A stretch of 64,000 nt of DNA from an uncultured Alphaproteobacteria bacterium. Its GTDB lineage: Bacteria > Pseudomonadota > Alphaproteobacteria > Bin95. Below, in pieces: positions 2,299 through 43,180 of the stretch. Made by a program: the position numbers and the translations under genes. Within the stretch, counting starts at the first letter, position 1. Every line of letters starts with the position of its first letter. Where the stretch lies: positions 56,308-120,307 of the forward strand of contig CALAHN010000089.1 in NCBI GenBank assembly GCA_937891825.1, read 5' to 3'. Below the pieces are notes generated by a model, which saw only the letters and a program-made list of their open reading frames with translations, was not told the origin of the DNA and did not search any database.

Positions 2299-3611
2299 GC
2301 GCCTGAACCGCCCGCGCGCTCGGAGCGGAGCTTCGCCCAATAGGCCAGGCGCTTCTGGGCCTCGCGCTCGAAGCCGCGTTCGACGGGGCGATAGAACTGT
2401 TCGCGCGCCATGCCGTCGGGGAAATAGTTCTGACCGGAGAAGCCGTCCTCAGTGCTATGGTCGTAGGCATAGCCGTCGCTATAGCCAAGGTCTTTCATGA
2501 GCTTCGTCGGCGCGTTCAGGATGTGCTTGGGCGGCATCAGGGAGCCGGTTTGCTTGGCGGCGCGCATCGCTTCGCCGAACGCCTTGTAGACCGCATTGGA
2601 TTTCGGCGCGATGGCGAGATAGACCACGGCCTCGGCGATGGCGAGTTCGCCCTCGGGCGATCCGATCCGCTCGAAATGCTCCCAGGCCGCGAGCGCCAGC
2701 GGCAGCGCCTGCGGATCGGCGAGGCCGACGTCTTCAGCGGCGAAGCGCGCGACCCGTCTTGCGATATAGCGGGGGTCTTCGCCGCCGGTCAGCATTCGCG
2801 CCAGCCAGTAGAGCGCGGCGTCGGGGTCGGAGCCGCGCATCGATTTGTGCAGGGCCGAAATCAGATTGTAGTGCCCTTCCTGGGCCTTGTCGTAGATCGG
2901 CGCGCGCTTTTGCGCGACCACGGAAAGGGCCGCGACATCCAGCACCGGCTCCGCCGGCATGCGGACCAGTTCGTCCGCCAGGTTCAGGAGATAGCGCCCG
3001 TCGCCGTCCGCCATCGCCTTCAGCGCCTGACGGGCGCCGGCATCGAGCGGCAGCGGCCGGCCGGCGTCCGCTTCCGCGCGCGCGATCAGGCGCTCCAGCG
3101 CCGCGTCGTCCAGGCGCGACAGCACCAGCACCTGACAGCGGGAGAGCAGGGCGGCGTTCAACTCGAACGACGGGTTCTCGGTCGTCGCGCCGACCAGAAC
3201 GACGACGCCTTCCTCGACATAGGGCAGGAAGCCGTCCTGCTGCGCCCTGTTGAAGCGATGGATTTCGTCGACGAACAGCAATGTGCCGCGCCCCATCTCC
3301 CGGCGGCGCTTGGCTTCCTCGAAGGCTTTGCGCAAATCCGCGACCCCGGAGAAGACCGCCGACAGGGATACGAACTCCAGATCGACGGCGCCGGCGAGCA
3401 GGCGGGCGATCGTCGTCTTGCCGCAACCGGGCGGGCCCCAGAGGATCAGCGACGCGAGGCGGCGTTCCTGGAGCATGCGGCGGAGCGGCGCGGCCGGCCC
3501 GAGCACGCCATCCTGGCCGACGACCTCGTCCAGGGTCTTCGGGCGAAGCCGGTCCGCGAGCGGCCGCGGCGCGGCTTTCTCCAGTCCGGCTGCTTCAAAT
3601 AATGAGGCCAT
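2295..3611 (-). CDS. rarA: Replication-associated recombination protein A (AAA+)
   Basis: PLADRLRP, GPPGCGKTT, DEIHRFN, ATTENPSF, SALHKSMRGSD. Confidence 0.96.
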   Translation of the reverse strand: MASLFEAAGLEKAAPRPLADRLRPKTLDEVVGQDGVLGPAAPLRRMLQERRLASLILWGPPGCGKTTIARLLAGAVDLEFVSLSAVFSGVADLRKAFEEAKRRREMGRGTLLFVDEIHRFNRAQQDGFLPYVEEGVVVLVGATTENPSFELNAALLSRCQVLVLSRLDDAALERLIARAEADAGRPLPLDAGARQALKAMADGDGRYLLNLADELVRMPAEPVLDVAALSVVAQKRAPIYDKAQEGHYNLISALHKSMRGSDPDAALYWLARMLTGGEDPRYIARRVARFAAEDVGLADPQALPLALAAWEHFERIGSPEGELAIAEAVVYLAIAPKSNAVYKAFGEAMRAAKQTGSLMPPKHILNAPTKLMKDLGYSDGYAYDHSTEDGFSGQNYFPDGMAREQFYRPVERGFEREAQKRLAYWAKLRSERAGGSGA

Positions 3612-5026
3612 CAGCCGATTTCGAGCGCCAGGCGCCGGTCGCCGCGAAGGACGACGATCTTCCAGCGCCGCGGCCGCTCATCGATGGCCCTGAGCGCATC
3701 GTCGACCAGGCTGATCTCCCGCCCGTTGATAGTCTCGATCACGTCGCCGGGCCTAAGCCCGAGGCGGCGGGCGTAGCCGTTGGCTTTCAGGCGGAGGACC
3801 ACGACCCCGTCGCCCTTGATCTCCATGCCCAGTTCTTCCTTCAGGGCCGGGGAGAGGTTGGCGATTTCCGCCCCGTCGAGCGGCGATTCGGCGTCGATCT
3901 GCGTCGTATTGCGCGGCGGGATCTCCGGCGGCGGCTCCAGGAGCGGGGCGGCCCGATAGATCCGTCCGTTCCGCCAGTACTCGATGCCGACCCGGTCGCC
4001 GATGGTCTTGGTGGAGACGCGGAAGCGCAATTCCAACGGATCGCCGACGGGGCGGCCATCGACCGCCAGCACGACGTCGCCTTGCTTCAGGCCAGCTTCC
4101 GCCAATGCGCCATTCGGATCGACCCCATCCAGCAGGACGCCGCGCGGCGGCGAAAGCCCGAGCGCCGCCCCCAGATCCGCCGTCACTTCCTGGCCGTGCG
4201 CGCCGAGCCAGGGACGAACGACGCGCTGGCCGGTCCGGGCCGCTTCGACCATGCGGGCGACGAGGCTGGCGGGGATGGCGAAGCCAATGCCCATGCTGCC
4301 GCCGCTATTGGAGTAGATCGCGGTGTTCACGCCGACGACCTCGCCGTTCATGTCGATCAGGGCGCCGCCGGAATTGCCTGGATTGATGGCGGCGTCGGTC
4401 TGAATGAAGACGCCGAAATCCGTGAGCCCCGGACGCGAGCGCGCCAGGGCCGAGACGATGCCGCTGGTGACGGTCTGGCCGACGCCGAAGGGATTGCCGA
4501 TCGCCAGCACCAGATCGCCGACTTCAACGGAATCCGGCGCCGCGATGACGGCTGATGGAATGCGGGCGCCGGCGGTATCGATCCTCAGAACGGCCAGGTC
4601 GGCGCGATCGTCGGACTGGACGATGGTCGCCTCGAACTCGCGCCGATCGTTCAGAACGACGCGGATCTCGTCGGCGCCTTCGATGACGTGATGGTTGGTG
4701 ACGACGAGCCCGCTTGGATCGACGATGACGCCGGACCCGAGCGAGCTTTCCGTCCGTTCCCGTTCGCCGCCCAGGGCATCGCCGAAGAAGCGCCGGAAAA
4801 ACGGATCGTTGAAGAGCGGCGAGACCCGGCGCTGCCGCACCTTGGTGCGCGTGAAGATGTTGACGATCGCCGGCGCCACGTCGCGCACCAGCGGCGCGAA
4901 GGATAACTGCACCTGTTCCCGGCTTTCGGGCAGGACGCGCGTTTCCGCTTCGACCGGAAGCGGCGCGCCGGTCAGACCGAGCGCTCCGATCATCCAGGCG
5001 ACGGCGCATATGAGGGGACGTTTCAT
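3611..5026 (-). CDS. Do/DegQ family periplasmic serine endoprotease with two PDZ domains
   Basis: Signal peptide, SLGSGVI, TNHHVI, DAAINPGNSGG. Confidence 0.95.
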   Translation of the reverse strand: MKRPLICAVAWMIGALGLTGAPLPVEAETRVLPESREQVQLSFAPLVRDVAPAIVNIFTRTKVRQRRVSPLFNDPFFRRFFGDALGGERERTESSLGSGVIVDPSGLVVTNHHVIEGADEIRVVLNDRREFEATIVQSDDRADLAVLRIDTAGARIPSAVIAAPDSVEVGDLVLAIGNPFGVGQTVTSGIVSALARSRPGLTDFGVFIQTDAAINPGNSGGALIDMNGEVVGVNTAIYSNSGGSMGIGFAIPASLVARMVEAARTGQRVVRPWLGAHGQEVTADLGAALGLSPPRGVLLDGVDPNGALAEAGLKQGDVVLAVDGRPVGDPLELRFRVSTKTIGDRVGIEYWRNGRIYRAAPLLEPPPEIPPRNTTQIDAESPLDGAEIANLSPALKEELGMEIKGDGVVVLRLKANGYARRLGLRPGDVIETINGREISLVDDALRAIDERPRRWKIVVLRGDRRLALEIG

Positions 5027-5083
5027 GGCCTCACCCTATTCGATATTGCATCCGATGGAGATAGGCCCGATTGCGGGACCGCG

Positions 5084-6313
5084 CTACCCGGCAGCGTGCG
5101 CAAGCGGACTCATCGGCTCCGCCTCGATATGTGACGCTCGGAGCGCCGCGACAATCCGGTCCAGATGCTCGCGGCCCTCGGTCTCCAGCACGAAGTCGAT
5201 CTGGGTCGCTTTGATCGGCACGTCGAACGACAGGCGCTCATGCCGGACTTCCAGCACATTGCCGCCTTGCTCGGCGATGATGCGGGTCGTCAGCGCCAGC
5301 GATCCCGGCTGGTCGGGGGCCTCGACCCTGAGACGGACGATCCGTCGCTCGCGGGCCAGGCCGCGCAACAGCGCCTGGGCCAGGATGAAGCTATCGATAT
5401 TGCCGCCGGAAAGGATGAGGCAGACCCGCCTGCCAGTGAAGCGCTCGGGCTCCGCCATCACGGCCGCGAGCGCCGCGGCGCCAGCGCCCTCGGCGACGGT
5501 TTTCTCGATCTCCGCCAGGGTTTCGACCGCAATCTCCAGATGCGCCTCATCGACAAGGACGATCCTGTCGGCGCGGTCCCGGATAATCGGCAGCGTCAGC
5601 TTGCCGGGCGCCTTTACCGCGATGCCTTCCGCGAGCGTCGGCGCCGGCGCCGGCGCCGCGCGGTTTTCCAGCGCCGCCAACATGGACGGATAGTGCGCCG
5701 CCTCAACCCCGGTCAGCCGCGCGGCGGGCATGGCCTCCTGCAAGGCGACAGCGATGCCGGCGAACAGGCCGCCGCCGCCGATCGGGATCACGACGTCATC
5801 GAACGGAACGCCGCGCTCCGCTAGTTCCAGGCCGATCGTGCCCTGGCCGGCGATCACATGGGGATCGTCATAGGGATGGATGAATGTGGCGTTCCGCTCC
5901 TGCTCGAGACGGCGGGCGACGACGCCGGCCTCCTCAAGCGAGGCGCCCTCCAGGATCGCTTCGGCGCCGAAACGCCGGACGCCGGCGACCTTGGTATAGG
6001 GCGTGAATGCCGGCATGACGATCGCCGCCGGCGCCCCAAGGCGGCTGGCATGGTAGGCCACGCCCTGCGCGTGATTGCCGGCCGAGGCCGCGACGACGCC
6101 GCGCTTGCGCGCCGCTTCGGACAGGGAGAGCAGCTTGAACAAGCTGCCGCGGTCCTTGAACGAGGCCGTATATTGCAGGTTCTCGAACTTCAGCCAGATT
6201 TCAGCCCCGAACATCGCGGAGAGCGTGCGCGAGCAGGTCAGCGGCGTGTCGACGATCTGTCCCCGAATCGCCGCCGCGGCTTCACGGACGAAGGCCGGCG
6301 AAATCTCGATCAA
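5084..6313 (-). CDS. ilvA: Threonine ammonia-lyase, medium form with C-terminal ACT domain
   Basis: ENLQYTASFKDRG PLP lysine, SAGNHAQG, GGGGL, SGGNID; DQPGSL ACT; TTG start. Confidence 0.9.
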   Translation of the reverse strand: MIEISPAFVREAAAAIRGQIVDTPLTCSRTLSAMFGAEIWLKFENLQYTASFKDRGSLFKLLSLSEAARKRGVVAASAGNHAQGVAYHASRLGAPAAIVMPAFTPYTKVAGVRRFGAEAILEGASLEEAGVVARRLEQERNATFIHPYDDPHVIAGQGTIGLELAERGVPFDDVVIPIGGGGLFAGIAVALQEAMPAARLTGVEAAHYPSMLAALENRAAPAPAPTLAEGIAVKAPGKLTLPIIRDRADRIVLVDEAHLEIAVETLAEIEKTVAEGAGAAALAAVMAEPERFTGRRVCLILSGGNIDSFILAQALLRGLARERRIVRLRVEAPDQPGSLALTTRIIAEQGGNVLEVRHERLSFDVPIKATQIDFVLETEGREHLDRIVAALRASHIEAEPMSPLAHAAG

Positions 6314-6315
6314 AA

Positions 6316-6672
6316 CTACAGCACCCCCAACAGACGGCCCGGAGCGAGCGCGAACAGAAAGGCGGCGATCAACCCCACACAGGTTCCGAGCATCGCATAT
6401 CGATGGCTGTCGATCTTCCCCTTTCTGACGGCGACGACTGCGTAGACCAGCGAGACTAGGGTAATGACGGATAGAATGTGGATCGGGCTCCAGCGGTCGC
6501 CATTGATTCCGGTGATCCAGAAGCTGGTGGTCGCGACAATGGTCATCAGCCCGACCCAGACTTTGCCCAGCTTGCGATGCAAGCGATCGCCCTTCGGACG
6601 AAATGCCATAATTGCCGCGATTGGCAGCGCGAAACTGGCCGCAGCCAGATGGACCAGGATGATAGGGCTCAT
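6316..6672 (-). CDS. DUF2306-like small membrane protein
   Basis: KGDRLHRKLGKVW, SPIHILS, HRYAM, PGRL; four hydrophobic segments. Confidence 0.75.
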   Translation of the reverse strand: MSPIILVHLAAASFALPIAAIMAFRPKGDRLHRKLGKVWVGLMTIVATTSFWITGINGDRWSPIHILSVITLVSLVYAVVAVRKGKIDSHRYAMLGTCVGLIAAFLFALAPGRLLGVL

Positions 6673-9068
6673 CGTTGCGCCGGACTGGTACGCAGCGTCA
6701 GCCGGTGCGCCGGGGTCTGGAGCGGCGCGAGCGCGCTATACCGGCCGTCCCGCCAGTTCTCCGCCATGCTCGAGCGGTTCGGCGAGAACAGGCGGCCGCT
6801 CTGGCCGGGGCCTGCGATCATCCGGGCGGCTTCCAGGTCGGCCAGATCGAAGATCGCGCGGAAGCTCGGCCCATGGCCCTGGCCGAATGGGTCCGCGCCG
6901 TCGGCGATGCGAAAGGCGGCGCGGTTGACGGTTTCCTGGGCGCCGGGCGCCGGCAGGCGGATATCGAAGATCCGGTTGAGCACGGGAATGAAACCGAAAG
7001 CCATATGCCGAAACCTTGCCTGATGGGCGTCGCCCCAATGCCAGCCTTGCGGGTCGTCGCCATAATTTTTACGAAGCCAGACATGGGCGCGCGTCAGGCT
7101 CTCGGCCAGAGCCGTCGCGCAGGTTTCAACGCTGTCCGTCGCAACGTCGTCGCACCAGACCGGCCGCCTGGTCAGGATACGGGCGAGCGGCTCTGCCCGA
7201 AGGCTGTTCCAGTCCTCGAATGCTTCCTGCATTTCATCGGCGAAGATCGTGCGCATGGCTTCCCGCATCCAGGCGAAGAAGATCAGCGGCTCCGCCGCCG
7301 CCATGGGCGTCGCGCCGTCCCAGGCCCGCAGGGCTGCGGCCAACGGCGCGTCGGCCTGGCGGAGCGGGGCTTCGTCGAGGGTCGCCAGCATGAGCGGCAG
7401 GAGGTCCCGGGCGATCGGCGACGCATTGTCGAACTGCAGGGCCTGCATGGCGTCCGCATCGGCGCCGCCGCCTGCCGCCGCCATGGCCTGGAGGGCTTGC
7501 TCGATCACGGCAAAGCGGCCTGGATAGCCCCATTCCCGACCGAGCGGGATCGGGTAATCGGAAGGCGCGAGCTGGTTATTGGCGTTCGCGACCCACCCTT
7601 GGGCCGGCTGGAAGGTCTGGGGCATCGTGTCGACATCGGCGAAACCGACCCAATCCCCGGCCGCGCCAGCGCCATCGGCGGGCATATAGCCGTCGCCGCT
7701 GCGCCGGATCGGCATCAGGCCGCCGACCGCCATGCCGACGCCGTCCGGCCCGGCGTAGAAGATATTCTGCTGCGGTCCCCGCGTCAGGCGGGCGGCGACG
7801 ATGACGTCCGTCCAGGTCCGCGCCCGATTGATCCGATAGAGCGTTTCCGCCGACCGCTCGCCTTCGAGGAAGCCCGTATGCGCCAATGCCAGCAAGGGCC
7901 CATCGTCGTCGGCCGGCGTGATGATCGGTCCATGGCGGGTCGTCAGGACCGTCAAGGTCCGGTCCGCGCCGAACCGGACGCGAATGGTCTCGGCGCGCCG
8001 TTCGAACGGGCGCGGCCCGTCGGGCGTCAGATACGCGTCTCTGTCCGATGGATCGACGGTCTCGACATAGAGATCACTCGTGTCGGTCGCGGCATTGGTG
8101 AGGCCCCAGGCGACATGGCCGTTGTGGCCCAGCACCATGGCCGGGACGCCGGGCGCCGTCGCGCCGGCGAGCAGCAAGCCGGGCGCTTCAAGCCGCACGA
8201 GATGCCAGACGCCGGGCGTCGTCAGGCCGAGATGCGGATCGTTGGCGAGCAGCGCATGGCCGCTCGCCGACAGCCGCCCGTCGAGGGCCCAGGCGTTAGA
8301 GCCATCCTCTGGATTGACCAGGTCCGCGAGGCCTGCCGCCGCATCGAGCACCGATTGCGGCGGAGCGGGCACGCTGACGGCGAGGCCAGCTTGATCCTCC
8401 GGCCAGAGGTCCGCCAATTGGTCCGGCGTCAGCACCCGCCCAAGCCTGAGGCGCATCAACTCCGATCCCCAATTGCCGACGAGGCGAAGCGCCATCAGCC
8501 GGTTCCAGGCGAGCGAGTCCGGGATGGTCCAGGGTTCGGGTTCGCCCGCCAGCAAGAGCGTAAGTTCGTCGGCGGCGACGCCCTTCCGCGTCTTGAGCCA
8601 GGTGTTCACGCCGTCGCGGTACCGCTCATAGACGGCGCGGACTTCGGGCGGCAGATGGGCGACGTCTCCAGCCGCGAGGCGGGCGAGACCGAGGCGCCGC
8701 ATGCGCTGGTCGATCGCAAGCCCCGGCTTTCCCATGATCTCGGAAAGTCGGCCGCCCGCGATCCGGCGCATGGCGTCCATCTGAAAGAACCGGTCCTGGG
8801 CATGGACGAAGCCTAGCGCGAAATAGGCGTCGCCCTCGCTTTCGGCCTTGATGTGGACAATGCCGAGCGCGTCCCGATCAATCGTCGCGACCGCCTGCAG
8901 GCCCGGCGTCAGGCGTTCGCCATCAAGCTCCGGCTGACCGAGCCAGACCCTGGCGACCAGGACCCCGACAATCAGCGCCGGCGCCAGGACGATCAGGGCG
9001 AGGGCGATGCCCAGATAGCGGGCGATGCGCCAGGGGCGCAAGCGACGGCGGCGGCCCGTCGCCGTCAT
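6669..9068 (-). CDS. Penicillin acylase (peptidase S45, Ntn hydrolase) family protein
   Basis: N-terminal TM anchor, GFVHAQDRFFQMD, GSNAW (nucleophile Ser), ANDPHL, GQSG. Confidence 0.93.
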   Translation of the reverse strand: MTATGRRRRLRPWRIARYLGIALALIVLAPALIVGVLVARVWLGQPELDGERLTPGLQAVATIDRDALGIVHIKAESEGDAYFALGFVHAQDRFFQMDAMRRIAGGRLSEIMGKPGLAIDQRMRRLGLARLAAGDVAHLPPEVRAVYERYRDGVNTWLKTRKGVAADELTLLLAGEPEPWTIPDSLAWNRLMALRLVGNWGSELMRLRLGRVLTPDQLADLWPEDQAGLAVSVPAPPQSVLDAAAGLADLVNPEDGSNAWALDGRLSASGHALLANDPHLGLTTPGVWHLVRLEAPGLLLAGATAPGVPAMVLGHNGHVAWGLTNAATDTSDLYVETVDPSDRDAYLTPDGPRPFERRAETIRVRFGADRTLTVLTTRHGPIITPADDDGPLLALAHTGFLEGERSAETLYRINRARTWTDVIVAARLTRGPQQNIFYAGPDGVGMAVGGLMPIRRSGDGYMPADGAGAAGDWVGFADVDTMPQTFQPAQGWVANANNQLAPSDYPIPLGREWGYPGRFAVIEQALQAMAAAGGGADADAMQALQFDNASPIARDLLPLMLATLDEAPLRQADAPLAAALRAWDGATPMAAAEPLIFFAWMREAMRTIFADEMQEAFEDWNSLRAEPLARILTRRPVWCDDVATDSVETCATALAESLTRAHVWLRKNYGDDPQGWHWGDAHQARFRHMAFGFIPVLNRIFDIRLPAPGAQETVNRAAFRIADGADPFGQGHGPSFRAIFDLADLEAARMIAGPGQSGRLFSPNRSSMAENWRDGRYSALAPLQTPAHRLTLRTSPAQR

Positions 9069-21909: not shown

Positions 21910-21940
21910 TTGACAGAAACATTGGCGGCATGGCTAATAG
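21910..21940 (+). promoter_or_regulatory. Housekeeping sigma70 promoter for the riboswitch-metZ transcript
   Basis: TTGACA (21910-21915), 17 nt spacer, GCTAATAG; lies directly 5' of the aptamer. Confidence 0.7.
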
Positions 21941-21942
21941 AG

Positions 21943-22000
21943 CTCGTGGTGATTTGAGCGACCAGCTTGCGGGCCACGTAAAATAAACCGCTAAAGAGGT
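21943..22000 (+). ncRNA. SAM-II (SAM-alpha) riboswitch aptamer
   Basis: CGTGGTGATTTG...GCTTGCgGGCCACGTAAAATAAACCGCTAAAGAGG; P1 CGTGG/CCACG, pseudoknot TTTGAGCG/CGCTAAA; upstream of metZ. Confidence 0.9.
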
Positions 22001-22008
22001 CGGCGAGC

Positions 22009-22038
22009 AGCCCGGCCTATGCGTCGGGCTATTTTTTT
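22009..22038 (+). terminator. Intrinsic terminator in the metZ leader
   Basis: AGCCCGG-loop-TCGGGCT stem followed by ATTTTTTT. Confidence 0.8.
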
Positions 22039-36340: not shown

Positions 36341-37531
36341 ATGAGCGGGCGCGGCCACATTCTCGGGCTGGCGGCGGCGGTCCTGCTTGCCGGCTGCTCG
36401 GGCGAGGGCGTCACCCGGACCGACCAGGGGGCGATTGAGCGTCGCTGGTCCGATGGCCAGTTGCCGCGCTATGGCGGGCCGCGGCCGGGCGCGACGAATA
36501 CGGCGCCGCTCAAAGTCGGCTTGCTGCTGCCGCTGACCGGCCGCTATGCCGCCTATGGCCAGAGCTTGTTGAATGCGGCGGCGCTCGCCCTGTTCGATGC
36601 GCCGTCCGAGCGCGCGGTCGACCTGTTGCCGCGGGACACGGGCGGCACGCCGGAAGGCGCGGCCGCCGCGGCTGTCGATGCGGCAGCGGCTGGCGCAGGC
36701 GTCCTGATCGGCCCCGCGCTCGAAGCGTCGGCGGCGGCGGCGCAACGCAGCGTCGGCGCAAGCGGCGCGCCCCTGCTGATGCTTTCGGGCGACCGGCGGC
36801 TGGCGGCGTCGGGGGCGTTTGTCGCCGGTCATGCGCCGGCGGCGCTCGCGACCCAGATCGTGGATTTCGCCTATCGTCGCGGCGTTCGGGTCATCGCGGG
36901 CCTCGGCCCCGACACACGCGCCGCGTCGGAAGCGCTGCTCGGCATGCAGGCGGCGGCGCAGGCGCGGGGCATGACCATCGTGTCGACGGGCGTGCTGCGC
37001 GGGCCGATGGCCGAGCCGGAATTGCATGCGGCCATCGCCCAGGTCTTGCAGGCGATAGGACCGGACGGCGCCCTGTTCCTGCCGTTTCCGGCGGAGAGCC
37101 TGCCGCCGATCGCGCGATCGATCCAGGCCGTCAGCGGCGGCCGGTCGCCGATCCTGCTGGGCCTGGCGGACTGGGACAGCATCGGCCTCGCGACCTTGCC
37201 AAGCTTTGGCCGCGCCTTTTTTGCCGGGCCCGATCCGGCGCAGACGGCGGCGTTTCGGCGCCGATATGCGGCGTTTTTCGGCAGCGCGCCGCCGCGCGAC
37301 GCAGCCCTGGTTTACGATCTCGTGGCGACAGCCCAGGTCGCCGGATCGGCCGCGCCCGGCAGGGGCCTCAGCGCCTATGCCTTGGAAGCCCCTGGCGGTT
37401 TCGTCGGCGTCGAAGGGCCGTTTCGCCTGACGCGGGAAGGGGCCGCGCGCCGGGCCTACAGCATTGTCGGCATCGTCGGCGGACGCCTGCAGGCGATCGA
37501 GCCAGCCTCGGCCGGCCTGCTCGCTAACTGA
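36341..37531 (+). CDS. LppC/LpoA-like penicillin-binding protein activator lipoprotein
   Basis: Lipobox LAGC, KVGLLLPLTG, DTGGTPEGA, IGP, GFVGVEGPFRL; divergent from rsmI as is usual. Confidence 0.8.
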   Translation: MSGRGHILGLAAAVLLAGCSGEGVTRTDQGAIERRWSDGQLPRYGGPRPGATNTAPLKVGLLLPLTGRYAAYGQSLLNAAALALFDAPSERAVDLLPRDTGGTPEGAAAAAVDAAAAGAGVLIGPALEASAAAAQRSVGASGAPLLMLSGDRRLAASGAFVAGHAPAALATQIVDFAYRRGVRVIAGLGPDTRAASEALLGMQAAAQARGMTIVSTGVLRGPMAEPELHAAIAQVLQAIGPDGALFLPFPAESLPPIARSIQAVSGGRSPILLGLADWDSIGLATLPSFGRAFFAGPDPAQTAAFRRRYAAFFGSAPPRDAALVYDLVATAQVAGSAAPGRGLSAYALEAPGGFVGVEGPFRLTREGAARRAYSIVGIVGGRLQAIEPASAGLLAN

Positions 37532-38399
37532 TGACGTAGCCGGACGGCTCGCCGATCAGCGTCGCGCGCAGCATATGCCGGGGCTCGGATTGGTCGAAAT
37601 CCGCGAGCGCCATATGCATGGTCGTGCGATTGTCCCAGCAGACAAGATCGCCTTCCTGCCATTGATGACGGTAGACGTTCTCCGGCTGGGTCGCGTGCTG
37701 GCAGAGGAAATCGATCAGCGGCCGGCTCTCCCGGACCGTCATGCCCGCGAAGTAGGAGACCCGTTCGCTGACATAAAGCGCCCGCCGACCGCTCTTCGCA
37801 TGGGTGCGGACAGCCGGATGGGCGATCGGCGGGTTCAGGCGTTTCACCTCCGCCGTCTTTGCCGGATCGCGGTCGCCGATCCCGGCGGTCAGCGAGATGT
37901 CGTAGACCGCCTCCAGGTCGTCGACGATCGACCGGAGCTTGGGCGACAGCGTTTCGTAGGCCCTCGCCATATTGGCGAACATGGTGTCGCCGCCGACAGG
38001 CGGGCGCGTGTCGCAATAGAGCATCGATCCGCCGGCTGGACGGCTCGTGTAGGAATAGTCGGAATGCCAGTTCCGGCCGGTATTCCGGGTTTCCGAAGGC
38101 TTGCCGTTCTGCTCGCGGTTCGTCACCTGCAGCAGTTCGGGAATTTCCGGATGGCGATAGGCCGGCGTCGAGGCATGGTCGTCGAGCGGGCCGAAGGCGC
38201 TGGCGAAATTCAGGATGCCATTCGGCTCGACGCGCTGGCCCCGAAAGACGATCAGATGATGCTCGTGCCAGAGCGCTTCGATCGCGGCGACCGTCGCCGC
38301 GTCTGGCCGGGTCCGGATATCGACGCCGTCGATCCTGGCGCCCAATGCGTAGCCAAGCGGGGTCGCGGCGATCTGGCTGTTGCGGCGGTCGTCGGACAT
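37524..38399 (-). CDS. TauD/TfdA family 2OG-Fe(II) dioxygenase
   Basis: WHSDYSY, PPVGGDTMF, HPAVRTH, WDNRTTMH. Confidence 0.93.
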   Translation of the reverse strand: MSDDRRNSQIAATPLGYALGARIDGVDIRTRPDAATVAAIEALWHEHHLIVFRGQRVEPNGILNFASAFGPLDDHASTPAYRHPEIPELLQVTNREQNGKPSETRNTGRNWHSDYSYTSRPAGGSMLYCDTRPPVGGDTMFANMARAYETLSPKLRSIVDDLEAVYDISLTAGIGDRDPAKTAEVKRLNPPIAHPAVRTHAKSGRRALYVSERVSYFAGMTVRESRPLIDFLCQHATQPENVYRHQWQEGDLVCWDNRTTMHMALADFDQSEPRHMLRATLIGEPSGYVIS

Positions 38400-38442: not shown

Positions 38443-39444
38443 CTAAAAATCCTGGATGGAAAGCCGGGTCGCGGGCCGAAGGTCGGGCAGCGCGCCGAGC
38501 GCCAGATAATCCCATCCGGCGAGCGCGATCATGGCGCCATTGTCGGTCGCCCATTTGAGCGGCGGCAACGCAAGCGTCACGCCGGCCGCGTCGCAGACCT
38601 CGGCCATCCGCTGCCGCACCTGGGGGCTGGCGGCGACGCCGCCCACGACGACGAGCGCGGCGGCGTCGACGGTCTCCAGCGCCCGGGCGCATTTGACGGC
38701 CAGGACGTCCAGAACGGCGGCGACGAACGATGCGGCGACCGTCGGCGGGTCGATGTCCGGCTGCTCCTGCACCAGGCGGGCGACCGCCGCCTTCAGGCCG
38801 GAAAACGAAAATTCCAGGCCGTCCTTGAGCATCGGCCGGGGGAAGACGATGTCCGGCGTCCCCAGTTTCGCCAGCTTGTCGATGGCGGGGCCGCCGGGAA
38901 AGCCCAGGCCCAGCATGCGCGCGACCTTGTCATAGGCCTCGCCGACGCTGTCGTCGCGGCTTGCCCCCAGGATCGATATGTCCGAAGCGCTGCGCATATG
39001 GGCGAGCATCGTGTGTCCGCCCGAAACAAGCAGCACAAGTGCCGGGAACGGAACGTCGCCGCCTTCGAGCGCGGCGCTCCTGAGATGCCCCCGGAGGTGA
39101 TTGACGCCGATCACCGGCTTGTCCCAGGCCAGGCCCAGGCCAGCCGCCGAATTGACGCCAACCATCAACGGCCCGATCAGGCCGGGGCCGCGGGTGACGG
39201 CGATGGCCCGGATCGCGCTTCGGTCAATATCGGCCAGCGCCAGGGTCTGGCGGATGGTCGGAATGATTTCCGCCGCATGGGCGCGGCTCGCGAGTTCCGG
39301 GAAGACGCCGCCCCATTCGGCATGGATGCGCGTCTGGCTCTGGGTGAGGGCCGCCTTGACGCTGCCGTCGGCCGCAACCAGCGCGACGGCGGTATCGTCG
39401 CAGGAGGATTCGATCCCCAGGATGTAGCGCTCGCGGTCAGCCAT
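38443..39444 (-). CDS. tsaD: TsaD/Kae1 family threonylcarbamoyltransferase homolog (divergent)
   Basis: ILGIESSCDDT, GGVFPELASRAH, GPGL, NHLRGH, VSGGHT, GEAYDK, PGGP, SFSGLK, TDNGAMIA. Confidence 0.92.
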   Translation of the reverse strand: MADRERYILGIESSCDDTAVALVAADGSVKAALTQSQTRIHAEWGGVFPELASRAHAAEIIPTIRQTLALADIDRSAIRAIAVTRGPGLIGPLMVGVNSAAGLGLAWDKPVIGVNHLRGHLRSAALEGGDVPFPALVLLVSGGHTMLAHMRSASDISILGASRDDSVGEAYDKVARMLGLGFPGGPAIDKLAKLGTPDIVFPRPMLKDGLEFSFSGLKAAVARLVQEQPDIDPPTVAASFVAAVLDVLAVKCARALETVDAAALVVVGGVAASPQVRQRMAEVCDAAGVTLALPPLKWATDNGAMIALAGWDYLALGALPDLRPATRLSIQDF

Positions 39445-40036
39445 GGCCCAGTCCAAACTCCGTCAGATCGCAGATCACGCCCCAGCGCAGCACCGTCGGG
39501 GGCGATGTGTTGAAGTTCACGACGGTCGAGGCCGTGCCGCCGAGCCGGCCGGCATCCCAAATGGCGTCCGGCGCGCCGGCAAGGTCCGCCAGGATCGCCG
39601 CCACGGTCGCGCCCGGCGGCTTGCCGTGGGCGTTGGCGCTGGTCGCGAAGAGCGGCCCGGTCTGCGCCAGAACGGCTTGGGCGCGGGGATCGCCGGGAAC
39701 CCGGACGCCGACCTCCTCCCGGTCGGCCAGCCATCCGGGCTTGGCCACCGGGTCGAGCGCCAGGATGAACGTGATCCCCGCCGCCAGCTCGCGCCGACGG
39801 AGCAGCGCCTCGGCAGCTGGGATGACGACGGCGCCGATGGCGGCGGGCGGCAGCCCTTCCGGCAACAGCACCTGGAGATTGAGCGCCGTCGGGCGCTGCT
39901 TCAATTCGAAGATGCGCGGCTTGCCGGTTGCATGGTCCGGATGGCAGACGAGGCCATAGACCGTATCGGTCGGCATCAGCCCAACGCCGCCGCGCTGGAG
40001 GGCTGCCGCCATGGCGTTCGCGTTCGGGTCAGTCAC
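39437..40036 (-). CDS. tsaC: TsaC/YrdC family threonylcarbamoyl-AMP synthase homolog (single domain)
   Basis: PTDTVYGL, KQR, VGVRVP, TSAN, STVV, LRWG; GTG start overlapping the tsaB stop. Confidence 0.88.
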   Translation of the reverse strand: MTDPNANAMAAALQRGGVGLMPTDTVYGLVCHPDHATGKPRIFELKQRPTALNLQVLLPEGLPPAAIGAVVIPAAEALLRRRELAAGITFILALDPVAKPGWLADREEVGVRVPGDPRAQAVLAQTGPLFATSANAHGKPPGATVAAILADLAGAPDAIWDAGRLGGTASTVVNFNTSPPTVLRWGVICDLTEFGLGHG

Positions 40037-40679
40037 GGAGAATCTCCGATTGATCGGTGATTGGTTGGACCGGGGCATAGGGCGTCGCTGGCGTCGCGAG
40101 GCTGATCTGCAGGAAGGTTTCAGCGCGAATCGCGCCGTCCCCGGCGTCGGTCGCCGCAAGCGACGGCGGCAGGCAGGCAGCGTCCGCCGCTGCAAGGCCG
40201 ACGACCGCCGCTTGGCTCAAGCCCGCCGCCGCGGCCGCAAGGGTTTCGGCCAGCGGGCCATGGCGGAGGCGGATGAGCCGGCCGCCGTCGACACGGCCGA
40301 CATAGGCGTTGCCGCCTGCCGATTTATGCACCGTCAGGACGCTCAGCCCAGTCGCGCTGTGAGCCTGAAGTCCGAGGGCGGCGCTCGCGATGACGGGCGT
40401 GACCGGCCGGTCCAGGCCAAAGCCCAGAGCATTGCCGAACGATACGGCCGCGCGGACGGCGCTCAAGCGGCCAGGGCCGATGTCGAGCAGCAGGCGATCG
40501 ATGTCCCCGACCGTCGCGCCGATGGCGGCGAGGCGGGCTTGGGTCATCTCGGTCCAGGTCGCCCCACGGGCCGGATCGGCGACGTCGCTTGTGTCCAGAT
40601 CGTCCAGGGCGACCTTGCCGTCCTGGAGCAGATAGAGCCGAGGCGAGAGTGCCGAAGCGTGAAGACATAAGATCAGCAT
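40029..40679 (-). CDS. tsaB: TsaB/YeaZ-like protein (strongly divergent)
   Basis: DIDRLLLDIGPGRLSAVRAAVSFGNAL aligns with the GPGSFTGxR helix; lies between tsaE and tsaC; 216 aa. Confidence 0.7.
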   Translation of the reverse strand: MLILCLHASALSPRLYLLQDGKVALDDLDTSDVADPARGATWTEMTQARLAAIGATVGDIDRLLLDIGPGRLSAVRAAVSFGNALGFGLDRPVTPVIASAALGLQAHSATGLSVLTVHKSAGGNAYVGRVDGGRLIRLRHGPLAETLAAAAAGLSQAAVVGLAAADAACLPPSLAATDAGDGAIRAETFLQISLATPATPYAPVQPITDQSEILRD

Positions 40680-41170
40680 TGCGCTCTAACGCATTTTAAT
40701 GACGCGGGTAACTCGCACAAGCGATCCTGCCACGCGGCAGCGGTGGACGTGAGCGTCAGGCTTCGGGTCGTCTCGGTTTCGGGCTCCAGTCGGATGTCCA
40801 GCGCAGGCGGTAGGACAGACCTGAACGCCTCGCCCCATTCAACGGCGGTCAGGTGGTCGGCATAGAAATCGTCCAGGCCGAGGTCGGTAAATTCCGCATT
40901 CGATTGAAGCCGGTAGGCGTCGATGTGGAGCAAGGGCAGCCGCGCCGACCGATAGAAATGGGCGAGCGAAAATGTCGGGCTCGTGACGGCGTCAGCGCTC
41001 CCGAGCGCCGCCGCCAGGGCTTGCACGAACGTCGTCTTGCCGGCAGCCAGCGGCCCGGACAGGATAATGACGTCGCCCGGTCGGCTGAGGCGGGCGATGG
41101 CGGCCGCGACGGCGGCGAGACGATCGCGGTCGAGGCCGGGCAAGGCGAGGGATGCTTGAGGGTGTTTCAT
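40673..41170 (-). CDS. tsaE: TsaE/YjeE family ATPase
   Basis: LSGPLAAGKTT, VTSPTF, HIDAYRL, VEWGE; start 41170 or 41221. Confidence 0.93.
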   Translation of the reverse strand: MKHPQASLALPGLDRDRLAAVAAAIARLSRPGDVIILSGPLAAGKTTFVQALAAALGSADAVTSPTFSLAHFYRSARLPLLHIDAYRLQSNAEFTDLGLDDFYADHLTAVEWGEAFRSVLPPALDIRLEPETETTRSLTLTSTAAAWQDRLCELPASLKCVRAQC

Positions 41171-41321
41171 AAGGGCCGATATGGGTGCGGAAGGCGCGGA
41201 AACTAGCGTCTGAGGCTCCATGTGCCAAGGCGGCGGCGTGTTGAGGCATTTGGGGGCGCTGCTTGCAATCAGGCGCCCTGTCCCTATGATCCGCGACCCT
41301 CACAGGCCCGGATTTTCGTCG

Positions 41322-42272
41322 ATGATGAACCTCGAAGCTTTCCGAAATTTGCCGCACGCGATATCGCTGCTCGGCATGTCGGGCGTTGGCAAGACCACGC
41401 TCTCGAAAGCCCTGCGGTCGAGCGCCAACTGGTATCACTATTCCGCCGACTACCGGATCGGGACGCGCTATCTTTCCGAGCCGATTCTCGACAATATCAA
41501 ATACAAGATCATGGCGATGGATGATCAATTCGTCGCCAATCTGCTGCGGTCGGACTCGATCTTCATCGCCCACAATATTTCGGTCGACAATCTGGAGCCG
41601 GTTTCGACCTTCCTTGGCATGTATGGCGATCCGGCGCTCGGCGGCCTGGACAAGGAAGATTTCCTGGAGCGGCAGGAGCTGTATCGTCGGGGCGAAGTGC
41701 AGTCGATGCGGGATGTGCCGCATTTCATCCGGAAAGCCTGGAACATTTACGAGTGCAATTGCTTCGTCAACGATGCGAGCGGGTCGCTCTGCGAAATCGT
41801 GACGCCGGACGATCCGGCGGATCCGGTCATCAAGGCGCTGACCGATCACACCCTGCTGCTCTATATCCAAGCCGACGCGGGCGCCGAGGAAGCTTTGAAA
41901 GAAAGGGCGCGGACCCATCCGAAGCCCTTGTTTTATAATCCGGAATTCATTGAGCCGAAGCTCGCCGGCATGCCGGAAGGCGGCGAAGGCGTCGACCCGA
42001 TCGGCTTCGCGCGCCCGCTCTTCCCAGAACTGCTTGAGTTTCGCAAACCGCGATATAGTTCGATGGCGCAATCCTTCGGCGTATCGATCAAGGCGGCGGA
42101 GCTGTTCGGGCCGAATTCGGACCAGACCCCATCGGCCGATGCGTTCGTCGAGATTGTGCACAGGGCGCTCAGGCGGGAGGTCCAGTGCAATCCCAATGGC
42201 GCCGCCACGTTTGAGCGTTATCTGAAGGCCTGCGCAGGTCGTGCGGCCTACCGGCAGGGCGCGGGAGCTTAG
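41322..42272 (+). CDS. Uncharacterised P-loop protein (kinase-like ATPase)
   Basis: LLGMSGVGKTT Walker A at the N-terminus, YHYSADYRIGTRY, NDASGSLCE, HPKPLFY; start uncertain. Confidence 0.75.
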   Translation: MMNLEAFRNLPHAISLLGMSGVGKTTLSKALRSSANWYHYSADYRIGTRYLSEPILDNIKYKIMAMDDQFVANLLRSDSIFIAHNISVDNLEPVSTFLGMYGDPALGGLDKEDFLERQELYRRGEVQSMRDVPHFIRKAWNIYECNCFVNDASGSLCEIVTPDDPADPVIKALTDHTLLLYIQADAGAEEALKERARTHPKPLFYNPEFIEPKLAGMPEGGEGVDPIGFARPLFPELLEFRKPRYSSMAQSFGVSIKAAELFGPNSDQTPSADAFVEIVHRALRREVQCNPNGAATFERYLKACAGRAAYRQGAGA

Positions 42273-42277
42273 CTGAG

Positions 42278-43180
42278 ATGTCGGTCATTCTACCGGGCGA
42301 ACTGCCCGCATTGGCAGCGCTGCTGGATGAAGGCGTCGACGCGCGTGCTGCGCCGGCGATCGACGCGCCTGGGCGGCGGCTTGAGATCGCAATCTTCAAC
42401 CTGATGCCGAAGAAGCTGGAAACCGAACTTCAACTGGCGCGGATGCTCGGCCGCTCCGCCGGCGCCGTCGCGCTGACCTTCGCCGCTCCGAACGCCTATG
42501 CGGGCAAGAACGCGCCGGATGGCCATCTCGACCGATTTTATCGCCGGTGGCGGGACCTCCGGCATTCGGCGTTCGATGCGGTCATCATCACCGGCGCGCC
42601 GATCGAGACCATGCCGTTCGAAGAGGTGAGCTACTGGGATGAAATCGCCGAAGCCCTGGATTGGATCAAGACGGGCAGGGATGGCGCGCCATTGCCGCTT
42701 TTGAGCCTCTGTTGGGGCGCGCAAGCGGCGCTCTATCGCTATTACGGCGTGCCCAAGCGCGATTTGTCGGCGAAGAAATTCGGGGTCTTTCCCCATGACC
42801 TGGCCGATCCCGCAAGCCCGTTCCTGCAGGCCCTGGACGACCAGCCGACCATGCCCGTTTCACGCTGGACCGAGACCCAGATCGAGGACCTGAAGGCCTT
42901 GCCGCATCTTCGGCCATTGCTGATTTCGAAGGAATCCGGCCTCGGCGCGCTTGTAGATGAGCGCATGGGGCATCTGCATATCTTGAACCACTTCGAATAT
43001 GACGCCTTGACCCTGGACGCGGAATATCGGCGCGACCTCGAAAAGGGCTTGGCGATCAGGCCGCCGGAGCACTATTACCCCGGTGACGATCCATCCAAGC
43101 CGCCGCCGCACACCTGGCGCGCCAATGCGCAGACGTTTTATGGCAATTGGGTGCGCTGGCTGCTGGAGCGGCGAGGTTAG
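42278..43180 (+). CDS. metA: Homoserine O-acyltransferase, MetA family (probably acetyltransferase)
   Basis: NLMPKK..TE, IITGAPIE, LCWGAQA catalytic Cys, SRWTE, HFEYD..TL..EY.RD. Confidence 0.92.
   Translation: MSVILPGELPALAALLDEGVDARAAPAIDAPGRRLEIAIFNLMPKKLETELQLARMLGRSAGAVALTFAAPNAYAGKNAPDGHLDRFYRRWRDLRHSAFDAVIITGAPIETMPFEEVSYWDEIAEALDWIKTGRDGAPLPLLSLCWGAQAALYRYYGVPKRDLSAKKFGVFPHDLADPASPFLQALDDQPTMPVSRWTETQIEDLKALPHLRPLLISKESGLGALVDERMGHLHILNHFEYDALTLDAEYRRDLEKGLAIRPPEHYYPGDDPSKPPPHTWRANAQTFYGNWVRWLLERRG

What the first reader, a model, noticed from the sequence alone, without database searches (positions are those of the whole stretch)
38443..41170. All four t6A genes (tsaE-tsaB-tsaC-tsaD) in one overlapping operon: candidate second, repurposed aminoacyl-carbamoyl-transfer system
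Seen: four consecutive minus-strand ORFs, each overlapping the next by 7-8 nt, with TsaE, TsaB-like, YrdC and TsaD motifs. Known: in Alphaproteobacteria these genes are usually dispersed. tsaE-tsaB-(rimI)-tsaD clusters are typical of Bacillota/Actinomycetota and normally exclude tsaC. Segments such as RDDSVGEAYDKVAR, PGGPAIDKLA and HIDAYRL..VEWGE look more like Gram-positive homologs than alphaproteobacterial ones (recollection, not aligned). Inference: a self-contained, probably horizontally acquired paralog module that installs a t6A variant, modifies a different acceptor (other RNA, nucleotide or small molecule), or backs up the core pathway.
Basis: partly seen in the sequence, partly recalled or inferred. 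Interest (0 to 1): 0.85.

Follow-up and report, generated by a model that had tools for sequence, protein, structure and literature searches.

The report
Horizontally spread four-gene t6A operon
These four overlapping genes are this bacterium's only machinery for the universal tRNA modification t6A, not a second system, but the operon belongs to a lineage that has moved between distant bacteria and replaced their original scattered genes.

Summary
tsaE, tsaB-like, tsaC and tsaD lie head to tail on the minus strand (38443-41170) and overlap by 7, 8 and 8 nt.

The 99.97%-complete genome has no other TsaD, TsaC, TsaE or TsaB. This operon must therefore be the housekeeping t6A37 pathway. The catalytic motifs are intact, and a TsaB-TsaD interface is predicted.

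The horizontal-acquisition part holds. All four proteins group with the same E-B-C-D operon from Rhodobacteraceae, Actinomycetota, Bacteroidota and other hosts, not with the dispersed genes of the organism's own family. An AU test rejects vertical descent (p 0.00028).

The operon type is rare: 8 of 401 Alphaproteobacteria, 2 of 351 Actinomycetota and 1 of 351 Bacteroidota sampled. In 16 of 17 carrier genomes checked it supplies the only intact TsaD. Two Bacteroidota MAGs keep a broken canonical tsaD.

Best reading: whole-operon xenologous displacement of an essential, universal pathway. The donor is unknown. Interest is moderate.

The parts
40673..41170 (-). tsaE (165 aa from ATG 41170; an alternative ATG at 41221 gives 182 aa). 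P-loop ATPase subunit of the t6A transferase complex.
   Evidence: PF02367 114.9 bits and TIGR00150 97.2 bits against a cut-off of 60.1. The Walker A motif GPLAAGKTT is read. The SPTF, HxDxYR and EW motifs align with a solved TsaE, 5mvr (E 2.4e-22). It is the only PF02367 match over the cut-off in the genome.
40029..40679 (-). tsaB-like (216 aa). A divergent YeaZ-type partner of TsaD.
   Evidence: TIGR03725 44.1 bits (below the 69.3 cut-off) and PF00814 24.7 bits against 24.8. The best solved relative is YeaZ 3r6m, at only E 2.2e-4. The D-I-G-P-G...R...F-x-N motif is invariant in 12 operon-type TsaB proteins. A complex with TsaD is predicted: ipSAE 0.89 against a best control of 0.00. Its start overlaps the tsaE stop by 7 nt.
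39437..40036 (-). tsaC (199 aa from GTG 40036). Single-domain YrdC-type threonylcarbamoyl-AMP synthase with no Sua5 C-terminal domain.
   Evidence: PF01300 104.6 bits on the 199-aa form, with no PF03481. The K-x-R and S-x-N (KRSN) motifs are present here and in 17 of 17 operon-type rows. It aligns with solved YrdC/Sua5 proteins. It is the only PF01300 match in the genome. It overlaps the tsaB stop by 8 nt.
38443..39444 (-). tsaD (333 aa from ATG 39444). Catalytic threonylcarbamoyl transferase.
   Evidence: TIGR03723 371 bits against a cut-off of 296.1. It aligns over its full length with solved TsaD 4ydu (E 2.4e-75), keeping H-x3-H and DNGAM. H116, H120 and D301 are invariant in 12 operon-type rows. 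It is the only TsaD in the genome. It overlaps the tsaC stop by 8 nt.
41171..41321 (.). Divergent intergenic region between tsaE and the P-loop ATPase gene. This is the presumed promoter region of the operon (inferred only).
   Evidence: Position only. The consensus scan found one sigma-70-like site, on the + strand at 41263-41290, and none for the minus strand. No transcript data were available.

Best explanation
The locus is the organism's only, housekeeping pathway for N6-threonylcarbamoyladenosine at tRNA position 37. It is encoded as one translationally coupled operon, tsaE-tsaB-tsaC-tsaD.

Inferred mechanism, from the established bacterial pathway: single-domain TsaC makes threonylcarbamoyl-AMP from threonine, bicarbonate and ATP. 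TsaD, held as a heterodimer with the divergent TsaB, transfers the threonylcarbamoyl group to A37. The ATPase TsaE resets the complex.

The operon is not native. It belongs to a distinct, monophyletic operon lineage that occurs sparsely in several alphaproteobacterial families, Actinomycetota, Bacteroidota and a Bradymonadia MAG. An ancestor of this genus acquired it horizontally, and it replaced the ancestral dispersed set (tsaD beside hemC, a two-domain Sua5-type tsaC, and separate tsaE and tsaB).

Transfer as a unit makes sense because TsaD works only with a co-adapted TsaB. A cassette that carries all interacting parts plus the TC-AMP synthase is self-sufficient on arrival.

Shown here: gene content, sole-copy status, clade membership, rejection of vertical descent, and loss of the canonical genes. 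Inferred: enzymatic activity, co-transcription, and the direction and number of transfers.
For: Sole copy. There is one TsaD, one PF01300, one TsaE and one TsaB-like match in G000, which is 99.97% complete with 0.29% contamination. Canonical TsaD, Sua5, TsaB and TsaE from family relatives hit nothing else at E<0.07.

Intact motifs.

Predicted TsaB-TsaD interface. ipSAE is 0.89 against a best control of 0.00. That mark was reached by 58 of 80 solved complexes and 2 of 110 mismatched pairs. Partner pLDDT is at least 88 and contacts agree by at least 98%. Solved TsaBD complexes exist, so this pass may reflect likeness to them.

Identity gap. TsaD is 73-81% identical in 9 of 9 genomes of the genus but only 43-49% in 15 of 15 genomes of the two other genera of the family. 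It is 54-66% identical to operon-borne TsaD in other taxa.

Gene order. 22 of 28 operon-type loci show E-B-C-D by tblastn. 11 of 12 further loci show B-C-D, plus E where the flank reaches it.

Trees:
- TsaD: 26 operon-type rows form one clade (SH-aLRT 100, stem 1.04), separate from 20 canonical alphaproteobacterial rows (SH-aLRT 100).
- TsaD again, with 89 rows: SH-aLRT 99.
- TsaC: 17 rows, SH-aLRT 99.
- TsaB: 12 rows, SH-aLRT 99.
- TsaE: 13 canonical alphaproteobacterial rows split off with SH-aLRT 100.

AU test. Holding the genus together with canonical alphaproteobacterial TsaD costs 79.4 lnL, p 0.00028.

Displacement. In 16 of 17 carrier genomes checked, the operon TsaD is the only full-length intact one. 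The 17th, G044, keeps a canonical tsaD with an in-frame TAA. G662 also keeps a 117-aa remnant that lacks the His motif.

Rarity of the operon type:
- 8 of 401 Alphaproteobacteria.
- 2 of 151 in the family of G041.
- 3 of 81 in the family of G042.
- 2 of 351 Actinomycetota.
- 1 of 351 Bacteroidota.
- 1 of 41 in the class of G659.

Literature. Passages of PMC4615747 report that B. subtilis ygjD rescues E. coli only together with its own yeaZ, and that only pairs from close relatives form complexes.
Against: No donor was identified. The nearest outgroups of the TsaD clade are unnamed representatives from metagenomes.

There is no signature of a mobile element. 0 of 66 plasmid records and 0 of 21 phage records with a TsaD match reach 60% identity. 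GC content is not anomalous: 0.69 against a window range of 0.63-0.70. Operon loci match their hosts' GC, from 0.36 to 0.73. The transfers are therefore old and can be inferred only from trees.

The long stems (1.0-3.2 substitutions per site) could partly reflect accelerated evolution, and long-branch effects are possible.

TsaB and TsaC score below NCBIfam's equivalog cut-offs.

Several host labels come from MAGs and could be binning errors. The isolates Pacificibacter, Celeribacter and Actinomycetospora do not depend on binning.

Nothing is known about activity or expression.

In the large surveys only the 5-6 best first-look candidates per genome were scored.
Confidence: 0.8

Rival explanations
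1. First reader's reading. The operon is a second, paralogous aminoacyl-carbamoyl-transfer module that works beside a canonical t6A set. It would modify another acceptor, install a variant, or act as a backup.
For: The operon is horizontally acquired and self-contained. TsaB and TsaC are divergent and fall below the equivalog cut-offs. One MAG, G044, does hold both an operon-type and a canonical tsaD.
Against: No second copy of any of the four families exists in this genome. None exists in 16 of the 17 carrier genomes checked for TsaD. The one coexisting canonical tsaD carries an in-frame stop. t6A is near-universal, so the only set present has to supply it (established knowledge; PMC4615747 passages).
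Confidence: 0.03
2. Vertical descent. The genus inherited its own tsa genes, which were brought together into an operon and then evolved fast. The resemblance to operons in other phyla would be convergence or long-branch attraction.
For: The operon-type clades have long stems in all four trees. Composition matches the host. No mobile-element context was found. The operon type is commonest in Alphaproteobacteria among the sampled groups.
Against: The AU test rejects grouping with canonical alphaproteobacterial TsaD (p 0.00028). The same gene order and the same single-domain TsaC recur in Actinomycetota, Bacteroidota and three separate alphaproteobacterial groups. TsaD is 54-66% identical across those hosts but only 43-49% identical to the organism's own family. 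In the 50%-identity representative library the clade collapses to one full-length representative, followed by a gap from 525 to 307 bits.
Confidence: 0.07
3. Same sole-copy operon, but functionally distinct. The divergent TsaC/TsaB/TsaD set would make a variant product such as another aminoacyl-carbamoyl adenosine. Alternatively it would be insensitive to some inhibitor of the canonical enzymes, and selection for that property would drive its spread. This reading overlaps with the best explanation.
For: Repeated replacement of an essential pathway in unrelated hosts calls for a driver. TsaB sits about 3 substitutions per site from all canonical TsaB. TsaC has clade-specific signatures around the catalytic motifs: L-K-x-R-P and T-S-A-N, against A-K-G-R-P and P-S-A-N.
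Against: The catalytic tetrad of TsaC and the metal ligands of TsaD are unchanged. No accessory gene travels with the operon. Neutral displacement by a self-sufficient cassette is enough to explain the pattern. There are no product data.
Confidence: 0.1

Closest known systems
Bacterial TsaC + TsaB-TsaD-TsaE t6A system. Solved complexes include 4ydu and 6n9a; that these come from E. coli and Thermotoga is my recollection, since the tool showed only molecule names.
   Same: The same four protein families with the same catalytic motifs. TsaD aligns over its full length with 4ydu, TsaE with 5mvr and TsaC with YrdC/Sua5 structures. The predicted TsaB-TsaD interface uses the N-terminal helices.
   Different: All four genes sit in one overlapping operon. 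TsaB is very divergent (E 2e-4 to the nearest solved YeaZ). Each protein falls in a clade of its own.
Bacillota/Actinomycetota tsaE-tsaB-rimI-tsaD operon (ydiBCDE type).
   Same: The order tsaE-tsaB-X-tsaD on one strand with overlapping genes, as seen in annotated Bacillus thuringiensis and Staphylococcus records and as tsaB-rimI-tsaD in Tsukamurella.
   Different: Position X holds tsaC instead of rimI, so the operon encodes the whole pathway. TsaD and TsaB are not nested in the Bacillota or Actinomycetota clades.
TsaN, a fused TsaD-TsaC-SUA5-TcdA modular enzyme (PMC10484737; I saw the listing, the start of the abstract and two passages).
   Same: It physically links the TC-AMP synthase and the transferase in one genetic unit.
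   Different: TsaN is a fusion protein with Sua5 and TcdA domains and without TsaB/TsaE. Here there are four separate small proteins, and no Sua5_C domain.
Xenologous displacement of essential translation genes, such as aminoacyl-tRNA synthetases (general concept, recalled).
   Same: An essential, universal informational function is taken over by a horizontally acquired version and the native gene is lost.
   Different: Here four interacting genes are replaced together as an operon. My literature searches found no description of this for t6A.

Membership tests
Bacterial t6A37 synthesis system (TsaC + TsaBDE) | TsaD orthologue over the curated equivalog threshold, with the H-x3-H and Asp metal ligands | tested here: met
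   TIGR03723 371 bits against 296.1. H116, H120 and D301 are invariant in 12 operon-type rows. Alignment to 4ydu.
Bacterial t6A37 synthesis system (TsaC + TsaBDE) | TsaE P-loop ATPase over the curated threshold | tested here: met
   TIGR00150 97.2 bits against 60.1. The Walker A, SPTF, HxDxYR and EW motifs align with solved TsaE.
Bacterial t6A37 synthesis system (TsaC + TsaBDE) | TsaB (YeaZ) partner of TsaD | tested here: inconclusive
   The protein is below the curated cut-offs: TIGR03725 44.1 against 69.3, and PF00814 24.7 against 24.8. In its favour are its position, the conserved GPG...R motif and the complex prediction (0.89 against 0.00). That prediction may reflect likeness to solved complexes.
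Bacterial t6A37 synthesis system (TsaC + TsaBDE) | TsaC/Sua5 with the KRSN tetrad that separates it from YciO | tested here: met
   K-x-R and S-x-N are present in 17 of 17 operon-type rows and absent in 3 YciO-like actinobacterial paralogues. PF01300 is over its cut-off. TIGR00057 at 96.8 bits is below its 123.2 cut-off. The tetrad as a criterion comes from PMC4615747 passages.
Bacterial t6A37 synthesis system (TsaC + TsaBDE) | Produces t6A on ANN-decoding tRNAs | not testable with these tools
   Needs nucleoside LC-MS or reconstitution.
   There is one copy of each family in G000 and no remnants.
Bacillota/Actinomycetota-type tsaE-tsaB-rimI-tsaD operon | rimI between tsaB and tsaD, and proteins branching with Bacillota/Actinomycetota orthologues | tested here: not met
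   tsaC occupies that position. The TsaD and TsaB clades lie outside the Bacillus/Staphylococcus and actinobacterial canonical groups.
Operon-type (tsaE-B-C-D) t6A lineage defined here | All four proteins fall in the cross-phylum clades, and the gene order is E-B-C-D with short overlaps | tested here: met

The most novel reading that the evidence does not exclude
The tsaE-B-C-D cassette is a self-sufficient, mutually co-adapted t6A machine. It is incompatible with host subunits and spreads because it confers a selectable property, not by neutral replacement. That property could be a variant aminoacyl-carbamoyl product made by the divergent single-domain TsaC, or insensitivity to a natural inhibitor of the canonical TsaD/TsaB/TsaE. 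This would make t6A synthesis a second example, after the aminoacyl-tRNA synthetases, of an essential translation function reshaped by selection-driven transfer.
Probability: 0.1. Interest if true: 0.7.

Novelty: new variant of a known kind. Interest (0 to 1): 0.4.

Why it matters
t6A synthesis is one of the few functions found in all cells. TsaD (COG0533) is one of the 40 universal marker genes, and one of the ten used by mOTUs2 for metagenomic profiling (PMC6399450, passages). From memory, TsaD and TsaB models are also among GTDB's 120 bacterial markers; I could not verify this (one search found no text).

The results point to a whole essential, multi-subunit pathway that can be swapped as an operon across phyla. 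That is a clear exception to the expectation that highly connected informational genes resist transfer.

It also gives a practical warning. In about 2% of the Alphaproteobacteria sampled, and in scattered other taxa, these marker genes report the history of the cassette and not that of the host.

Cultured carriers exist (Pacificibacter, Celeribacter, Actinomycetospora). They make it possible to test TsaB-TsaD co-adaptation and cross-compatibility directly.

Tried and rejected
Donor search. I added 50%-identity representatives to the TsaD tree and then searched the nearest one, P0006, for named relatives. Its relatives are a small unnamed group, followed by a mix of truncated names (Thermaerobacter, 'Deferris...', 'Nit', 'The', 'Del', 'Can'). 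No donor can be named.

Vector search. No operon-type TsaD occurs on plasmids (0 of 66 matching records reach 60% identity) or on phages (0 of 21). No integrase or other shared neighbour appears across hosts.

Insertion-site reconstruction. TauD has 24-34 paralogues per genome in the family, and only G012 has a 72% orthologue. The P-loop ATPase is found in 3 of 5 relatives, at other positions. No empty site could be defined.

TauD as part of the system. I rejected this. TauD is conserved next to the operon only within the genus, and the family is massively paralogous.

Promoter and terminator scan. It found nothing usable on the minus strand.

Expression. No RNA holder was listed, and read laying was not used.

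Complex prediction. It passed, but solved TsaBD complexes exist, so it shows likeness rather than proof.

Rows dropped before trees:
- TsaE tree: 5 of 35 loci (L024, L027, L038, L097, L098) had no or only a short tblastn segment.
- TsaC tree: 9 of 41 loci were dropped (L046, L101, L106, L109, L110, L113, L118, L120, L122). These include all three canonical rows of the own-family genus g3, so the own family is represented there by g2 only.
- In the TsaC tree, the L036 row labelled 'module' turned out to be a different yrdC gene and fell among the canonical rows.
- TsaD trees: only segments of at least 280 aa were used. Tsukamurella (two segments) and representatives outside 300-400 aa were left out.

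Unpublished genomes. G108, G084 and G050 are among the 75 canonical rows. Only that count rests on them.

Supplements. Supplementary files of papers were not consulted. The online table of PMC4615747 may hold clustering data that I could not see.
Full report
**Observation**

The window carries four consecutive minus-strand ORFs. Pfam and NCBIfam assign them to TsaE, a TsaB-like protein, YrdC/TsaC and TsaD.

I read the sequence. The most plausible starts are ATG 41170 (tsaE), ATG 40679 (tsaB), GTG 40036 (tsaC) and ATG 39444 (tsaD).

TsaD and TsaE pass NCBIfam's equivalog cut-offs (371 against 296.1, and 97.2 against 60.1). TsaC passes Pfam's cut-off but not TIGR00057's (96.8 against 123.2). The TsaB-like protein is below both of its cut-offs (44.1 against 69.3, and 24.7 against 24.8).

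**Is it a second system?**

No. The window lies in a genome of 4.30 Mb in 163 contigs, 99.97% complete with 0.29% contamination. Six-frame HMM searches of that genome find exactly one TsaD, one PF01300 protein and one TsaE over the cut-offs, plus one TsaB-like gene. All are in this operon. The same searches ring in the named control genomes.

tblastn with canonical TsaD, Sua5-type TsaC, TsaB and TsaE taken from relatives of the same family finds nothing else in the genome at E<0.07. The operon has to supply ordinary t6A.

**Are the proteins fit for that job?**

- TsaD aligns from end to end with a solved TsaD (4ydu, E 2.4e-75). It keeps the H-x3-H pair and the DNGAM aspartate. These residues are invariant in 12 operon-type TsaD proteins.
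- TsaE keeps the Walker A, SPTF, HxDxYR and EW motifs when aligned with a solved TsaE.
- TsaC is a 199-aa single-domain YrdC form without the Sua5 C-terminal domain. It keeps the K-x-R and S-x-N motifs, the KRSN tetrad. According to PMC4615747 (passages), that tetrad separates TsaC from the paralogue YciO. The tetrad is present in 17 of 17 operon-type TsaC rows and absent from three YciO-like actinobacterial paralogues.
- TsaB is remote from solved YeaZ proteins (E 2e-4) but keeps the GPG...R...F-x-N core.
- A complex prediction with my own 12-row alignments gave ipSAE 0.89 against a best control of 0.00. That mark was reached by 58 of 80 solved complexes and 2 of 110 mismatched pairs. Partner pLDDT was at least 88 and the runs agreed in at least 98% of contacts. 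TsaB-TsaD complexes have been solved, so this shows likeness to them and not proof of binding.

**Is it native?**

No.

TsaD is 73-81% identical in all 9 other genomes of the genus. In one of them it comes in two pieces. It is only 43-49% identical in the 15 genomes of the two other genera of the same family, no closer than in other families of the class. In those relatives the genes are dispersed. Their tsaD sits divergently next to hemC and their tsaC is the two-domain Sua5 type. In this genome the hemC neighbourhood holds no tsaD and no remnant.

A scan of one genome per prokaryotic species returned 31 loci. Of these, 28 carry a TsaD 54-81% identical to ours. Nine come from this genus. The other 19 come from:
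- Pacificibacter and Celeribacter isolates and MAGs.
- Other Rhodobacteraceae MAGs.
- A Brevundimonas MAG.
- An alphaproteobacterial chromosome-level MAG.
- Actinomycetospora sp. NBRC 106378.
- A Streptosporangiaceae MAG.
- Three Bacteroidota MAGs.
- A Bradymonadia MAG.

In 22 of the 28 loci, tblastn finds all four genes in the order E-B-C-D. The six exceptions are:
- L019 and L027, which are cut by contig ends.
- L039, where TsaB is seen only as an ORF.
- L024, where the operon is split into tsaC-tsaD and tsaE-tsaB pairs.
- L036 and L046, which lack the operon-type tsaC. L046 has a long Sua5 gene just downstream.

In twelve further loci from later surveys, eleven show B-C-D, with E where the flank reaches it. 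Across hosts only these four genes are conserved, and the junctions are again 1-8 nt overlaps.

**Trees**

- TsaD, 52 rows: the 26 operon-type rows form one clade (SH-aLRT 100, stem 1.04). They are apart from a clade of 20 canonical alphaproteobacterial rows that includes the organism's own family and Rhodobacteraceae (SH-aLRT 100).
- TsaD, 89 rows: with named Bacillus, Staphylococcus, Streptomyces and Klebsiella sequences and 50%-identity representatives added, the clade holds (SH-aLRT 99). It is nested in none of the named groups.
- AU test: holding the genus together with canonical alphaproteobacterial TsaD costs 79.4 log-likelihood units (p-AU 0.00028).
- TsaC: the operon-type rows form a clade (17 rows, SH-aLRT 99, stem 1.15).
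- TsaB: the operon-type rows form a clade (12 rows, SH-aLRT 99). It lies about 3 substitutions per site from canonical alphaproteobacterial, Bacillus, Staphylococcus and Tsukamurella TsaB.
- TsaE: the 13 canonical alphaproteobacterial rows split off (SH-aLRT 100). The operon-type rows lie on the other side together with the single actinobacterial row.

All trees are quick searches with SH-aLRT support only.

In the 50%-identity library of 1.84 billion proteins, the clade is one full-length representative (525 bits), followed by a drop to 307 bits. In the 90%-identity collection, all 120 best hits are at least 58% identical, and those that carry a name are called plain TsaD. The clade is therefore sizeable in nature but tight and isolated.

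**Distribution and displacement**

At E<=1e-100, a threshold that separates the two types cleanly, the operon type occurs in:
- 8 of 401 sampled Alphaproteobacteria, in 6 genera and 6 families.
- 2 of 401 sampled Pseudomonadota, both alphaproteobacterial.
- 2 of 351 Actinomycetota.
- 1 of 351 Bacteroidota, the centre genome only.
- 1 of 41 genomes of the Bradymonadia MAG's class, the centre only.

At E<=1e-30, the split is as follows:
- Family of Actinomycetospora: 3 of 81 operon-type, 75 canonical, 3 with no match.
- Family of Pacificibacter: 2 of 151 operon-type, 144 canonical, 5 with no match.
- No genome in these two samples has both types.

I checked seventeen carrier genomes for a second TsaD with family models. 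In sixteen of them the operon copy is the only full-length intact one.

In five carriers (Pacificibacter maritimus, Celeribacter arenosi, the Brevundimonas MAG, the alphaproteobacterial chromosome, and this genome) the operon genes are also the only TsaC, TsaE and TsaB. Actinomycetospora has extra PF01300 genes.

Two Bacteroidota MAGs look like intermediates. G044 keeps a canonical tsaD interrupted by an in-frame TAA near codon 35, on a contig of the same low GC as the operon contig. G662 keeps a 117-residue N-terminal remnant in which the His motif is gone. Both are MAGs, so binning error cannot be excluded.

Operon loci match the composition of their hosts, from 0.36 to 0.73 GC. Here the operon is 0.69 GC in a window that ranges from 0.63 to 0.70. 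The transfers are therefore old.

No operon-type TsaD is on a plasmid or phage record. The donor is unknown.

Within the clade, hosts group coherently: the genus with one alphaproteobacterial MAG, Rhodobacteraceae, Bacteroidota, and Actinomycetota. This suggests a few transfers, each followed by vertical descent. Alphaproteobacterial hosts are the most frequent carriers and are paraphyletic within the clade.

**Interpretation**

The best-supported reading is whole-operon xenologous displacement. A self-sufficient cassette that encodes the TC-AMP synthase and the three interacting transferase subunits entered an ancestor of this genus, and the ancestral dispersed genes were lost.

The reason for transfer as a unit is inferred from the literature. 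[quoted passage not shown]

Literature searches for a description of such an operon or of horizontal transfer of the t6A genes found none. PMC5335608 treats the actinobacterial alr-groEL1 operon, which contains tsaE/B/D; I saw only its listing and the start of its abstract. PMC10484737 describes a fused TsaD-TsaC-SUA5-TcdA enzyme (passages).

**Verdict**

The claim of a second, repurposed system is refuted for this genome. The claim of horizontal acquisition is supported and extended to a cross-phylum operon lineage that displaces the canonical genes.

This is a new variant of a known system and is of moderate interest. The interest is mainly evolutionary, with a practical side: TsaD (COG0533) is a standard universal marker gene (PMC6399450, passages).

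Noticed in passing
window 41322-42272 (+): An uncharacterised P-loop protein of about 316 aa lies divergent from tsaE and directly upstream of metA (42278-43180). It has only weak AAA_18 and homoserine-kinase P-loop hits. Its protein-atlas neighbours are 'ATPase' clusters without a Pfam family. It is 72-80% identical across the genus and 68-69% identical in 3 of 5 family relatives, at other positions.
   Followed up: partly
window 37524-38399 (-): A TauD/TfdA-family dioxygenase starts 43 nt downstream of tsaD on the same strand and is possibly co-transcribed. It is conserved there only within the genus. Relatives of the family carry 24-34 paralogues per genome. It is most likely unrelated to t6A.
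   Followed up: partly
window 21936-22015 (+): A SAM_alpha riboswitch (RF00521, 70.7 bits), consistent with an alphaproteobacterial host.
   Followed up: no
L141 (G044:C434) about 3067-4092; L140 (G662:C307) about 2085-2429: Two Bacteroidota MAGs that carry the operon also hold a damaged canonical tsaD. One has an in-frame TAA near codon 35. The other is a 117-aa N-terminal remnant without the His motif. These are possible snapshots of displacement, but both are MAGs.
   Followed up: partly
L025 3057-3785 and 3798-4412; L026 2593-3237; L046 6065-7021: Variants of the operon occur in other hosts. The Mariniphaga MAG has an extra YrdC-like gene and a 204-aa ORF without a Pfam match between tsaB and tsaC. 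Actinomycetospora has a second yrdC upstream of tsaE. The Saprospiraceae MAG lacks the short tsaC and has a two-domain Sua5 gene just after tsaD.
   Followed up: partly
L124 (NZ_CP016083.1, Streptomyces sp. SAT1 plasmid) 3986-8293: An 840-kb linear plasmid carries a canonical-type tsaD followed by a GNAT acetyltransferase gene and alaS, near gamma-butyrolactone regulator genes. I did not check whether this is an extra copy of translation genes.
   Followed up: no
L125 (MT880872.1, 'Staphylococcus phage PhiSepi-HH3') 1-7008: A record filed as a phage genome carries tsaE-tsaB-rimI-tsaD flanked by ilvD and mutS. This looks like host chromosomal DNA within the record.
   Followed up: no
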